This document shows positions 60,105 through 62,359 of a DNA stretch of 64,000 nucleotides, piece after piece. Source of the stretch: Nitrosopumilus sp. (GTDB taxonomy: Archaea; Thermoproteota; Nitrososphaeria; Nitrososphaerales; Nitrosopumilaceae); assembly GCA_965238275.1 (NCBI GenBank), contig OZ250186.1, forward strand, positions 1,664,001-1,728,000, written 5' to 3'. The number at the start of each line of letters is the position of its first letter. Positions within the stretch are counted from its first letter, which is position 1. The notes beneath the pieces were generated by a model. The model had not been told where the DNA came from. It did not search any database and was given only the letters and a program-made list of their open reading frames with translations. A program made the translations under genes and the position numbers.

Positions 60105-60458
60105 CTAGTTTGCCTTCTGCCGTGCCAAAAGAAGATTGACCTTCTTTAAGACATCATCAACAATGTGACTGGCGGCATGGCACCTGAAACTGGCATTTCG
60201 TGCTCGCCAGTCTAGGTTCTTTATATGATCTGCCAGAACCACACCAGATACAGGACTTGAGAGTGGAAGATGTACCTCAAACGGATATCCCTTGATCTGG
60301 GACGTAATGGGACAAAAGAGTGCCAAACCGGTCCACCTTGTTATAAGAACACGGACTCAAGACCAAGGCTGGGCGACGACCCGCCTGCTCGTGTCCAGAC
60401 TGAGGCGTAAAATCCAGCCAGACAATATCTCCTCTTTCGGGGAGATATTCCGGTTCTA
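60105..60458 (-). pseudogene. mazF: MazF/PemK toxin; start codon separated by the TnpB element and +1 frameshift near 60332
   Basis: YLPERGDIVWLDFTPQSGHEQAGRRPALVLS then a shifted frame LALFCPITSQIKGYPFEV...DHIKNLDWRAR. Confidence 0.85.
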
Positions 60459-60526
60459 TAGTGAAAAGCGAAAGTTCGTGCAATTTTTTGAGATCCTTTT
60501 TAAGAAAATAAATCCCAACTACAGGT

Positions 60527-61855
60527 ATGATTGTCAGTAAAATCATCAAGATAACACAATCTCGGGAACTGTCACGCAAGATCGTGAAATGCTCCCGGGA
60601 AACAGACATCATTTACGACATGACAATCATGATGAAACTTGCACACTCACGGATCACACAGTTTGATGTCAACAACCTGATAACAGGATGGCGCAGGGAA
60701 TTCGGCCTGACCAACAGCGTCCGCATGCATGAGGCCGCCTCAAAACAGGCTTTCCAGGCGGCAGTCAAATTCCGCAAGGCAAACCGGCTCAAGCACAACA
60801 AGCGCATCTGGCGCAAGAAGCAGATCAAGCTGGGGAAAAAGAAGACGTACAAGCACAATCGGTGGACCGAGCCGTCCAGCCTGATGAGGCGCGGCAGGAA
60901 AACAACCAGGCTGCGCTCGCTGAATTCACGCGCAAAGCCAAAACTGCGAGACAGTGGAGCGGTATTTCTGCCCGGACTCGGGGAAGCAAGGCCACGCACG
61001 AAGGTTCCAGAAGGCAGGCTCGTGTCATTCCAGATGATTGACACCACAGGCAAGGTCACGCGTAAGACCAAGGATGGTGATCGCGAATTCAAACTGCATT
61101 TGCAGATAGAAGTCCCAGACCCCGAACCCGCGACAGGCGGTGGCGGCGGCGGATGCAAGGCAGGGCTGGATCTTGGAGTCAGGCACCTTGCGGCAGTCGC
61201 AGACGAGCATGGGAACGAAAAACTGCACAATGTCCCCGGAGGCTGCAAGAGGCATGACGGCGACAGGATTGATCAGCTGAAATCACTTAGATCAAGATGC
61301 CATGCAGGCTCCAGAAGATGGAAAGAGATCGGCCGCAGGATAACGCATGAATTGAAAAAGATATCAAACAGGCAAAAACACAACGAGGCCGACATTGCCA
61401 GGCGGATAACAAAAGGACTGTCCGTATTGTTCTTGGAAGATCTGGATTTGACCAGGATGAGGCGATCCTGCGGGGCGGCTTCAAAGACGGGGTTGAACCG
61501 CGAGATGGCCTATTCCAGAATGGGCGAGTTCAGGATCCAGCTTGAATGGCAGATGAAAAAGAAAGGCGGAATTTCAAGACGCGTGGAACACGCACATACA
61601 AGCCAGAGGTGCGCTGCCTGCGGGGTAGTGGACAAGAAATCCAGGAACGGCGAATCATTTGTCTGCGTCTCATGCGGATGGTGCCACCATGCCGACAAGA
61701 ACGCGGCAAAAAACATTTTGGATAATGACTGTCTCCATACGGAGGAGACTGGCGGCCAAGCCCACGGGAATCGTGGAGGCACCATTGCGAGGTGTCGAGG
61801 TCGTCACAAGGCGCGAGGATCACGGATCGGATGGTTCTGGAATTCTCGCTCATAA
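60527..61855 (+). CDS. tnpB: TnpB-family RNA-guided endonuclease
   Basis: RuvC-I GLDLG, RuvC-II LEDL, zinc finger TSQRCAACG...CVSCG, RuvC-III HADKNAAKNI. Confidence 0.9.
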   Translation: MIVSKIIKITQSRELSRKIVKCSRETDIIYDMTIMMKLAHSRITQFDVNNLITGWRREFGLTNSVRMHEAASKQAFQAAVKFRKANRLKHNKRIWRKKQIKLGKKKTYKHNRWTEPSSLMRRGRKTTRLRSLNSRAKPKLRDSGAVFLPGLGEARPRTKVPEGRLVSFQMIDTTGKVTRKTKDGDREFKLHLQIEVPDPEPATGGGGGGCKAGLDLGVRHLAAVADEHGNEKLHNVPGGCKRHDGDRIDQLKSLRSRCHAGSRRWKEIGRRITHELKKISNRQKHNEADIARRITKGLSVLFLEDLDLTRMRRSCGAASKTGLNREMAYSRMGEFRIQLEWQMKKKGGISRRVEHAHTSQRCAACGVVDKKSRNGESFVCVSCGWCHHADKNAAKNILDNDCLHTEETGGQAHGNRGGTIARCRGRHKARGSRIGWFWNSRS

Positions 61856-61995
61856 ATTTTTGATTTTCTGGTGCGATGCAGCTCGAGATGTGTGTTTATG
61901 TTCTTCATTGGAATCCAAATCAAACTGGGCATCGTCTGCATCTTGGTGCGTTATATACCAGCAATGAAAAACATATTCGCTCATAAATTTTTGAT
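61846..61995 (+). repeat. two 19-bp direct repeats flanking a copy of 62218-62313
   Basis: TCGCTCATAAATTTTTGAT at 61846-61864 and 61977-61995; 61863-61956 matches 62218-62313 except for a 2-nt deletion. Confidence 0.85.
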
Positions 61996-62126
61996 GCAAC
62001 AGCCGTCTCAGGTCGGCTTGGATCCGACAACGACGACAATATTGGAAGGTCTGACAGAGCGCCGGAAAGAGCATCAGGACACGCTACAGAGAGATCTGTT
62101 TGCACGAACTTTCGCTCGCCGCTATA

Positions 62127-62273
62127 CCATTCTTCGTTGCCTTGTGATGGGCCGGTATCCTGTTCAGGGTGGATGTTGTCAGGTTCTATACTGGTCAAAA
62201 TGTCTGCCAAGTCATTTATTTTCTGGTGCGATGCAGCTCGAGATGTGTGTTTATGTTCTTCATTGGAATCCAA
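62127..62273 (-). pseudogene. mazE: MazE-like antitoxin (C-terminal portion); stop codon split by the element
   Basis: LADILTSIEPDNIHPEQDTGPSQGNEEW resembles the MazE C-terminus; start uncertain. Confidence 0.7.
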
Positions 62274-62359
62274 ATCAAACTGGGCATCGTCTGCATCTGC
62301 TGGTGCGTTATATCTTTTACATGTCAGATCTTACATATATGCATAATTCGTGTTGGTAT

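What the first reader, a model, noticed from the sequence alone, without database searches (positions are those of the whole stretch)
60457..62126. TnpB carried in a TIR-bounded, TA-duplicating (IS630/Tc1-mariner-type) element: a Fanzor-like architecture in an archaeon
Seen: tnpB has all three RuvC acidic motifs and the zinc finger, and starts 68 bp inside a 25-bp inverted repeat (21/25 match to the other end). TA flanks both ends. Deleting the element plus one TA gives GAAGAATGGTAGAACCG on the minus strand, which restores the mazE stop (TGG TAG) overlapping the mazF start (ATG GTA GAA CCG). No tnpA or serine recombinase lies inside. Known: prokaryotic TnpB typically travels in IS200/IS605 or IS607 elements, which lack TIRs and TSDs. 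TIRs with a TA TSD typify IS630/Tc1-mariner, and eukaryotic Fanzors occur in such TIR transposons. Inference: this is a non-autonomous DDE-mobilised TnpB element. Its omegaRNA would run through the right TIR, taking a guide from the flank (TACCATTCTTCGTTGCC...) to cut excision-site alleles.
Basis: partly seen in the sequence, partly recalled or inferred. Interest (0 to 1): 0.9.

Follow-up and report, generated by a model that had tools for sequence, protein, structure and literature searches.

The report
TnpB riding in IS630-type transposon
This is one slightly damaged copy of a multi-copy archaeal mobile element that carries an RNA-guided nuclease gene (tnpB) and its guide RNA between the inverted ends of an IS630-type cut-and-paste transposon, an arrangement already described in 2023 but seen here in unusually clean detail.

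Summary
Window 60457-62126 is a tnpB element with 25-nt inverted ends (21/25) and TA on both sides.

It is one of 22 two-ended copies in a complete 2.2-Mb archaeal genome. That genome has no Y1 TnpA and no serine recombinase, but 34 IS630-type DDE hits.

Evidence for movement by an IS630 transposase acting in trans:
- A resident 1096-bp IS630 element has ends matching the tnpB element at 21-23 of 27 positions. Unrelated IS630 groups match at 9-15.
- Empty sites hold exactly 2 nt between the flanks.
- One copy is flanked TG/TG instead of TA/TA.

A roughly 240-nt structured RNA runs into the right end; 21 of 51 base pairs show compensatory changes.

The base 5' of the left TA is C at 35 of 35 sites. 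The right side is variable and the autonomous IS630 ends are mixed, so this C is probably part of the TnpB TAM.

The window copy is degenerate. A 165-bp insertion destroys one RNA helix, and a 1-bp insertion shifts the TnpB tail.

The kind is already published: IS630-linked TnpB, including solo copies with the same ends (Altae-Tran 2023, PNAS). This is a new member of it, useful as a test system.

The parts
60454..60456 (+). Left flank TTC. The C at -1 is invariant in the family and T at -3 is common. Candidate TAM together with the following TA.
   Evidence: C at -1 in 24/24 own-genome sites, 10/10 in genus-mate G017 and 1/1 in L104. The C is present in empty sites.
60457..60458 (.). Left copy of the TA target-site duplication.
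60459..60483 (+). Left terminal inverted repeat, 25 nt.
   Evidence: It matches the resident IS630 TIR.
60527..61855 (+). tnpB, 442 aa. The catalytic D-E-D and zinc finger are intact. The C-terminal tail is frameshifted by a 1-bp insertion near 61789.
61734..62124 (+). omegaRNA-like structured region overlapping the tnpB 3' end and running into the right TIR. In this copy it is interrupted.
   Evidence: Alignment A1, with 51 pairs of which 21 are compensatory. Coordinates were transferred from L002 by me.
61844..62008 (+). 165-bp insertion that replaces the 11-nt 3' arm of RNA helix 8. It consists of a duplicate of flank 62215-62298, a roughly 60-bp IS630 group-A end fragment, and a 19-bp direct repeat.
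62100..62124 (-). Right terminal inverted repeat, 25 nt.
62125..62126 (.). Right copy of the TA target-site duplication.
62127..62142 (+). Flank that would template a 16-nt guide (inferred).
   Evidence: Analogy with TnpB and Fanzor (PMC13565253, section 6.2). One RNA-library contig ends exactly here, which is weak evidence.
60105..60456 (-). mazF (PemK family), interrupted at its start by the element and frameshifted near 60320.
62127..62318 (-). mazE remnant. Only the C-terminal tail is recognisable; there is no start codon and no AbrB domain.

Best explanation
The interval is one copy of a roughly 1.5-kb non-autonomous transposon. It consists of IS630-family terminal inverted repeats enclosing only tnpB and its 3' omegaRNA.

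Inferred from matching ends: an IS630-family DDE transposase encoded by separate elements in the same genome binds these ends, cuts the element out and pastes it into a TA. The TA becomes duplicated.

Shown: TnpB is kept under purifying selection.

Inferred: TnpB loads an omegaRNA whose scaffold ends in the right TIR plus the 3' TA, and whose guide is read from the right flank. It would then cut alleles of the same site that lack the element, recognising a TAM made of the left-flank C plus the TA. Copies at TAM-proficient sites would thus be restored or retained by recombination.

The invariant C 5' of the left TA is read as the footprint of that selection.

The window copy is decaying. Its RNA scaffold is split by a 165-bp insertion and its TnpB tail is frameshifted. 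It sits in a mazEF module that is itself already broken.
For: Copy number and ends.
- The own genome (one contig, 99.92% complete) holds 22 two-ended copies plus fragments, 80-100% identical. All start and end with the same TIRs.
- 14 of the 22 have a tnpB frame of 479 aa or more, open to the element's right end.

Transposases in the genome.
- PF01797 (Y1): 0 hits. PF00239 (serine recombinase): 0 hits. PF13358 (DDE_3): 34 hits.
- The IS630 element G000:1873253-1874348 is 1096 bp. It scores 175.5 bits on NF033545 against a cut-off of 100.
- Its TIRs match the tnpB-element TIRs at 19-23 of 27 positions, its better-matching end at 21-23. IS630 groups A-C match at 9-15.
- It sits in a (GTA)n run whose period is restored by a single TA.
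- A solo end at G000:1082170 combines a 23-nt TIR identical to the tnpB element with an 18-nt IS630 subterminal motif.

Relatives.
- In genus-mate G017, two further tnpB subfamilies (about 55% and 46% aa identity) carry TIRs of the same family.
- G017's own IS630 copies carry them too, including the TATAC versus TATAG end variants.

Target-site duplication.
- The orthologous empty site in G000 for G017 copy L069 reads C-TA-G with one TA.
- Paralogous empty sites for two G000 copies hold exactly 2 nt between the flanks.
- Copy c2157229 is flanked TG/TG.

omegaRNA.
- 16 sequences gave 51 predicted pairs, 21 with compensatory changes, and 98.3% of cells paired.
- With the partners slid by 1-3 columns, 32-45% of cells pair. 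0 of 500 shuffles reached the observed values.

Selection and TAM.
- dN/dS over tnpB codons 1-395 is 0.12-0.31 in 6 pairs.
- The left -1 base is C at 35 of 35 independent sites. The equivalent base at the elements' own right ends occurs at 12 of 34, and C at autonomous IS630 ends at 9 of 16. Fisher p = 9e-10 and 1e-4.
Against: - No experiment or read-level data here shows transposition, transposase binding to these ends, an omegaRNA transcript with defined ends, or cleavage.
- The best-matching intact IS630 differs from the tnpB ends at 4-6 of 27 positions. Which transposase acts is therefore not settled.
- The autonomous IS630 sample is small (8 elements, 16 ends) and itself leans to C or G next to TA. 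Part of the C bias could be transposase preference.
- Only 1 of the 3 empty-site families has TA itself. The two paralogous families have TG and AA.
- Flanks of 2 further copies found no empty site in 5 relatives.
- Cut-and-paste excision already leaves a break. What TnpB adds is unclear, a point raised in PMC13565253 section 6.2.
- RNA-library contigs cover the element, but DNA carry-over was not controlled.
Confidence: 0.82

Rival explanations
1. An IS200/IS605- or IS607-type tnpB element happens to be nested inside an IS630-derived MITE. On this view the TIRs have nothing to do with tnpB.
For: The genome does hold other tnpB families without TIRs. One example is two 98%-identical copies at G000:576370-577593 and about 171.9-173.1 kb. 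On NCBIfam the protein scores higher on the IS607_TnpB model (91 bits) than on IS200_TnpB (60.6 bits), both below their cut-offs.
Against: - All 22 own-genome copies, 9 of 10 G017 copies examined and L104 keep both TIRs. The tenth G017 copy, L063, has the left TIR, but my pattern did not find its right end.
- These copies span about 45-100% aa identity, yet tnpB and the RNA sit at the same distances from the same TIR family.
- No tnpB of this clade was found without TIRs, and no TIR pair was found without tnpB.
- Only about 43 nt lie between the left TIR and the ATG, and that stretch has no significant hairpin (z = 0.9 and -0.24).
- RNA helix 10 pairs with nucleotides inside the right TIR.
- The genome has no Y1 or serine recombinase.
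Confidence: 0.04
2. The elements move by an IS607-like serine recombinase. The flanking TA would then be the shared crossover dinucleotide rather than a DDE-type duplication.
For: The TnpB is somewhat IS607-like on NCBIfam.
Against: - PF00239 gives 0 hits in the complete genome, while the control genomes respond.
- The ends are 25-nt inverted repeats shared with IS630 transposase elements.
- The TG/TG copy fits a duplicated target. It could also fit a crossover dinucleotide.
Confidence: 0.03
3. This rival concerns the sub-claim only. The invariant C before the left TA reflects the insertion preference of the transposase, or an asymmetric transpososome, and not a TnpB TAM.
For: Autonomous IS630 relatives show C at -1 on their transposase-proximal side in 5 of 8 elements, and C or G at most ends. 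IS630 itself is known to prefer CTAG (my own knowledge). The L and R TIRs of the tnpB element differ at 4 positions, so end-specific contacts are conceivable.
Against: - The bias is one-sided: 35/35 on the left against 12/34 for the equivalent base on the right.
- It is absolute only in tnpB-bearing elements.
- The -3 preference differs between tnpB subfamilies: T in 17/24 (G000) against A in 8/10 (G017).
- In Fanzor the 5' TSD is part of the TAM (PMC13565253 section 6.2).
Confidence: 0.3

Closest known systems
IS630-linked TnpB: the 'DDE-6' branch and solo TnpBs with transposase-type ends (Altae-Tran et al. 2023, PNAS, PMC10691335; passages read)
   Same: A TnpB lies inside symmetrical (inverted) ends of an IS630-family transposon. 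Its 3' end is within 250 bp of the transposon end. Solo TnpBs share ends with transposase-bearing elements, implying movement in trans.
   Different: - Here tnpB and the IS630 transposase were never found within the same element in either complete genome. The nearest pairs are 14-33 kb apart by the coordinates. The paper describes TnpB together with the DDE gene and a separate HTH protein.
- The host here is an ammonia-oxidiser-type archaeon.
- Whether this clade is in their DDE-6 branch cannot be told.
Fanzor1 in eukaryotic Tc1/mariner-type TIR transposons
   Same: An RNA-guided TnpB-family nuclease is carried as cargo between TIRs with a TA duplication. By analogy the 5' TA would be part of the TAM and the 3' TA part of the RNA scaffold (PMC13565253 section 6.2).
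   Different: - The host is prokaryotic and the protein is about 440-480 aa with canonical D-E-D.
- By sequence it is no closer to the solved viral TnpB-like L79 (E = 3.4e-8) than to ISDra2 TnpB (E = 5e-9).
- No phylogeny with Fanzors was built.
IS200/IS605 'IS1341-type' solo tnpB elements
   Same: They carry tnpB alone with a 3' omegaRNA, occur in many copies and depend on a transposase supplied in trans.
   Different: Those elements have asymmetric hairpin ends, make no TSD and use a Y1 TnpA. Here there are 25-nt TIRs, a 2-bp TSD, no Y1 gene in the genome and no hairpin at the left end.
MITEs and other non-autonomous derivatives of IS630/Tc1-mariner
   Same: They share TIRs with an autonomous IS630, insert at TA with duplication, reach high copy number and lack a transposase.
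   Different: This element carries a 1.4-kb functional cargo (tnpB plus RNA) under purifying selection. It also shows a one-sided flank signature.

Membership tests
TnpB (RNA-guided nuclease, OMEGA) | OrfB_IS605 and Cas12f1-like TNB domains above the curated cut-offs | tested here: met
   PF07282 scores 60.2 bits (cut-off 26.3) and PF01385 scores 43.8 bits (cut-off 30.5). NF040570 guided_TnpB scores 125.9 bits (cut-off 100) for a standard copy.
TnpB (RNA-guided nuclease, OMEGA) | RuvC D-E-D triad and zinc finger | tested here: met
   The window protein aligns to solved TnpB-type nucleases at GLDLG, LEDL, CxxC...CxxC and HADKNAA.
TnpB (RNA-guided nuclease, OMEGA) | Structured omegaRNA overlapping the 3' end of the gene and ending at the transposon end | tested here: met
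   The family shows 51 pairs, 21 of them compensatory, with 98.3% of cells paired. In the window copy helix 8 is destroyed. No Rfam family matched.
TnpB (RNA-guided nuclease, OMEGA) | RNA-guided, TAM-dependent DNA cleavage | not testable with these tools
   Only indirect evidence exists: the invariant C-TA on the left flank.
IS630/Tc1-mariner transposon (non-autonomous derivative) | Terminal inverted repeats shared with an IS630 transposase element | tested here: met
   The ends match at 19-23 of 27 positions to the TIRs of G000:1873253-1874348, at 21-23 to its better-matching end. Control IS630 groups match at 9-15. The G017 sets show the same pattern.
IS630/Tc1-mariner transposon (non-autonomous derivative) | 2-bp (TA) target-site duplication | tested here: met
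   One orthologous empty site has a single TA. Two paralogous site families have exactly 2 nt. One copy is flanked TG/TG.
IS630/Tc1-mariner transposon (non-autonomous derivative) | DDE_3 transposase encoded inside the element | tested here: not met
   No transposase lies inside, so the element is non-autonomous. The transposase family is present elsewhere in the genome.
IS200/IS605 | Y1 (HUH) TnpA, subterminal hairpins, no TIR and no TSD | tested here: not met
   PF01797 gives 0 hits in the complete genome. TIRs and a TSD are present. The left end has no significant hairpin.
IS607 | Serine recombinase TnpA | tested here: not met
   PF00239 gives 0 hits in the complete genome.
Fanzor | Eukaryotic or giant-virus host, and placement in the Fanzor clades | tested here: inconclusive
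   The host is an archaeon (aEF-2 lies next door; a related locus is in a Nitrosopumilus-labelled MAG). There is no special sequence closeness to the viral L79. No tree was built.
DDE-6 branch of Altae-Tran 2023 | Placement in that branch, with IS630 DDE and HTH genes in the same locus | not testable with these tools
   The branch membership lists are in supplements, which are closed. In the two complete genomes the DDE gene is never in the same element as tnpB.

The most novel reading that the evidence does not exclude
The one-sided, invariant C-TA at the left junction would be a natural genomic footprint of TnpB TAM selection acting on a cut-and-paste DDE transposon. On this reading TnpB-omegaRNA re-cuts resealed or sister empty sites, and only insertions made in the TAM-proficient orientation persist.

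That would show what an RNA-guided nuclease does for a transposon that already makes a double-strand break. It would also give a prokaryotic working model of the Fanzor1/Tc1-mariner partnership, with the autonomous and nuclease-bearing partners separated in one small genome.
Probability: 0.45. Interest if true: 0.7.

Novelty: new member of a known kind. Interest (0 to 1): 0.45.

Why it matters
A 2026 review (PMC13565253, section 6.2) asks why an RNA-guided nuclease would be kept by a DDE cut-and-paste transposon, which already leaves a break at the donor site. It also notes how rare such associations are in prokaryotes.

This genome and its genus-mate offer a compact natural system for that question:
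- dozens of recent copies;
- three or four diverged tnpB subfamilies;
- matching autonomous IS630 partners;
- a well-defined RNA scaffold;
- a concrete TAM prediction (C-TA, with T or A at -3 depending on the subfamily).

It does not change the known picture of TnpB biology. It supplies testable detail for a kind reported only in survey form.

Tried and rejected
Empty mazEF allele. The whole stretch from the end of aEF-2 to the next conserved gene, about 2.5 kb including mazEF and the element, is missing in the closest relative G017. It was not matched in the 39 other genus genomes searched. No paralogue of mazE or mazF exists in the own genome.

Empty sites for two other own-genome copies. 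Flanks of L002 and L003 found nothing usable in 5 relatives.

Rfam. The only match was a sub-threshold SECIS hit, taken as chance.

Wider relatives.
- Genome contigs returned a single related locus.
- The 5.8-billion-protein search gave 24 clusters at 46% identity or more, then a drop to 34% or less. The clade looks narrow, but the search depends on shared words.

RNA libraries.
- Contigs from 3 RNA runs of 2 studies cover tnpB and the RNA region.
- One contig (X17, depth about 3) ends 16 nt into the window copy's right flank.
- Contigs cannot show ends or strand. No silent stretch was laid as a DNA control, and the contig may be a chimera of copies.
- I count this as a hint only, not as evidence of expression.
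- Poly-A-like loose ends in X6 were not interpretable.

Not done or not available.
- A Fanzor/TnpB phylogeny was not built, because no Fanzor sequences were available from the tools.
- The supplements of PMC10691335 (branch membership, end alignments) were not visible. They may already list this clade.
- My two literature searches for an archaeal or thaumarchaeal description found none among the listed papers. One search ranked papers that do not mention TnpB, so it is weak evidence of absence.
Full report
WHAT IS IN THE WINDOW

Window 60457-62126 begins with TA followed by a 25-nt repeat. It ends with the inverted repeat followed by TA. The arms are 27 nt and 85% complementary. The 16-nt core occurs only at these two places in 64 kb, against 0.05 expected.

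Between the ends lies a single gene, tnpB (60527-61855, 442 aa).
- It passes both Pfam TnpB domains.
- Its RuvC D, E and D residues and the zinc finger align to solved TnpB-type nucleases.

The left flank is a PemK/MazF gene in two frames, so it is frameshifted. The right flank ORF ends with a 30-residue tail that matches the extreme C-terminus of an AbrB/MazE protein (E = 0.006). That ORF has no start codon, no AbrB domain and no family hit. The element therefore sits at the mazE-mazF junction of a module that is already decayed.

THE ELEMENT IS A MULTI-COPY FAMILY, AND THIS COPY IS ATYPICAL

The window lies in a single-contig genome of 2,216,668 bp, 52.7% G+C, 99.92% complete. It holds 22 copies with both ends, plus several fragments, at 80-100% identity.

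Standard copies are about 1,494-1,545 bp. 14 of the 22 have a tnpB frame of 479 aa or more, open to the element's right end.

The window copy differs from the standard in two ways.
- A 165-bp stretch (61844-62008) replaces 11 nt of the standard sequence.
- One extra base near 61789 shifts the TnpB tail after the catalytic domains.

The 165 bp is made of three parts:
- an 84-nt, 99% duplicate of the neighbouring flank 62215-62298;
- a roughly 60-nt fragment of the end of an unrelated IS630 group;
- a 19-nt direct repeat.

WHICH TRANSPOSASE

The complete genome has no Y1 TnpA and no serine recombinase. Both searches respond in control genomes. It has 34 DDE_3 (IS630-type) matches, which fall into several DNA groups.

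One element, G000:1873253-1874348, is the best candidate partner.
- It is 1,096 bp and encodes a 337-aa protein. That protein scores 175.5 bits on the NCBIfam IS630 equivalog, against a cut-off of 100.
- Its ends match the tnpB-element ends at 19-23 of 27 positions, its better-matching end at 21-23. The tnpB element's own two ends match each other at 23 of 27. Three other IS630 groups match at 9-15.
- It lies in a (GTA)n run whose period is restored by a single TA.

A solo end at G000:1082170 adds a further link. It joins a 23-nt TIR identical to the tnpB element's to an 18-nt subterminal motif identical to that IS630.

Relatives of this transposase, at 58-69% aa identity, occur again in the own genome and six times in the genus-mate G017. 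All have the same TIR family.

G017 also has two diverged tnpB subfamilies, at about 55% and 46% aa identity. Their ends belong to the same TIR family, including the TATAC and TATAG variants seen in G017's own IS630 copies.

A third species, locus L104 from a public MAG record, has a 73%-identical TnpB with the same ends.

In neither complete genome is a transposase of this family inside or next to a tnpB element (coordinates).

TARGET-SITE DUPLICATION

Every copy shows TA at both junctions, so the copies alone cannot separate the element from the duplication. Three lines of evidence do.
- For G017 copy L069, the orthologous site in the own genome is uninterrupted and reads C-TA-G with one TA. 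A join with one TA scored best: 128.0, against 122.5 with none and 126.5 with TATA.
- Two own-genome copies were inserted into repeated sequences. The uninterrupted paralogues, two for each, hold exactly 2 nt between the flanks. These are TG and AA rather than TA, and the paralogues differ elsewhere too.
- Copy c2157229 is flanked by TG on both sides. That is expected for a duplicated non-canonical target and not for element sequence.

A second candidate orthologous site (L066) was too diverged to read.

THE RNA

The last 260 nt of 16 elements were aligned: 7 from the own genome and 9 from G017. RNAalifold predicts 51 pairs in 10 helices, 21 of them with compensatory double changes.

On that structure 98.3% of cells pair. 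Sliding the partners by 1-3 columns leaves 32-45% paired and only 3-4 compensatory pairs. 0 of 500 column shuffles reached the observed values. The sequences are related, and the structure was derived from the same alignment, so these controls overstate somewhat. Even so, the helices with 5 and 7 covarying pairs are hard to explain otherwise.

The structure starts about 240 nt before the right end, inside the tnpB reading frame. Its last helix uses nucleotides of the right TIR.

The 11 nt lost in the window copy are the 3' arm of helix 8, so this copy's scaffold is broken. No Rfam family matches.

THE PROTEIN IS MAINTAINED

dN/dS over codons 1-395 is 0.12-0.31 in 6 comparisons.

In own-genome copies the frame stays open through the right TIR. 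In G017 most tail-spanning matches carry an in-frame TAG while similarity continues past it. The conserved tail therefore reflects the RNA and the TIR, not protein.

A ONE-SIDED FLANK SIGNATURE

The base before the left TA is C at 24 of 24 own-genome sites, after I corrected the register of two rows. It is also C at 10 of 10 G017 sites and in L104. All of these have different flanks. The C is present in the empty sites, so it belongs to the host.

Comparison with other ends:
- The mirror position after the right TA is G in only 12 of 34 sites.
- The 16 ends of 8 autonomous IS630 relatives show C in 9.
- Fisher tests give p = 9e-10 and p = 1e-4.

Position -3 is T in 17 of 24 own-genome sites but A in 8 of 10 G017 sites.

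A symmetric transposase should give a symmetric preference. A TnpB TAM lying 5' of the target, and including the 5' TA as reported for Fanzor (PMC13565253, section 6.2, read), would give exactly this one-sided pattern. That holds if copies are retained by RNA-guided cutting of empty alleles. This is inference. The small IS630 sample and possible end-specific contacts leave transposase preference as a live rival.

COMPARISON WITH WHAT IS KNOWN

Altae-Tran et al. 2023 (PMC10691335; passages read, not the whole text or supplements) report several points that bear on this finding.
- They describe a TnpB branch, 'DDE-6', associated with IS630-family DDE transposases and a separate HTH protein, with symmetrical ends.
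- They note copies in giant viruses and propose a link to Fanzor.
- They find solo TnpBs whose ends are nearly identical to those of transposase-bearing systems.

The 2026 review repeats this.

What this locus adds is a resolved example in an archaeon, with:
- the nuclease-bearing and transposase-bearing partners in separate elements;
- a defined TSD;
- an RNA model;
- a TAM prediction.

By sequence the protein is an ordinary TnpB. ISDra2 TnpB scores E = 5e-9 and the mimivirus TnpB-like L79 scores E = 3.4e-8. Both the IS607_TnpB and IS200_TnpB models score below their cut-offs. I did not build a tree with Fanzors.

VERDICT

The particular copy is decaying. The kind is already known: this is a new member with useful detail. 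Interest 0.45.

Noticed in passing
window 61844-62008 and 62215-62313: The 165-bp insertion in the element contains a near-exact duplicate of part of the adjacent mazE remnant, joined to an IS630 group-A end. The join lies at the point where the outer mazE copy loses its 5' part. The insertion is bracketed by 19-nt direct repeats (61846-61864 and 61977-61995). This suggests an earlier IS630 insertion in mazE followed by an aberrant transposition or templated-repair event. The mechanism is unexplained.
   Followed up: partly
window 60105-60465 (minus strand): mazF is split into two frames near 60320, as two PemK Pfam pieces. The whole mazEF-plus-element stretch is absent between aEF-2 and the next gene in genus-mate G017.
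   Followed up: partly
G000 genome-wide: 34 DDE_3 matches fall into several IS630 groups, each with its own TIRs and TA flanks. That is a very IS-rich 2.2-Mb archaeal genome. Several tnpB copies carry nested insertions, three of them inside the left TIR (left ends at 645960, 827297 and 2149881).
   Followed up: partly
G000:C1:576370-577593 and about 171.9-173.1 kb: Another tnpB family, about 30% identical, occurs in two 98%-identical copies with no TIR. The shared sequence ends inside the RuvC-III motif. Further tnpB families at about 31-35% identity lie at 1130376, 1933306 and 1086765. All are in a genome without any Y1 or serine transposase.
   Followed up: partly
G000:C1:2157229-2158722: This tnpB copy is flanked by TG/TG instead of TA/TA, so the insertion went into a non-canonical dinucleotide.
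   Followed up: yes
L002:2555-3021 plus 13 nt (run X17): A contig from an RNA library of another study covers the canonical 3' part of the element and runs 16 nt into the right flank of the window copy, ending there. It has no 165-bp insertion, but it may be a chimera of copies.
   Followed up: no
G000:C1:951012-951040: Directly after the right end of copy c952545 lies a 29-nt piece identical to an internal part of the element's RNA region. Its origin is unexplained.
   Followed up: no
G000:C1:501199-502602: A fourth tnpB subfamily, 45% aa identity with one in-frame TAG, has a right end of the same TIR type. Its possible left end lies about 890 bp upstream of the gene.
   Followed up: partly
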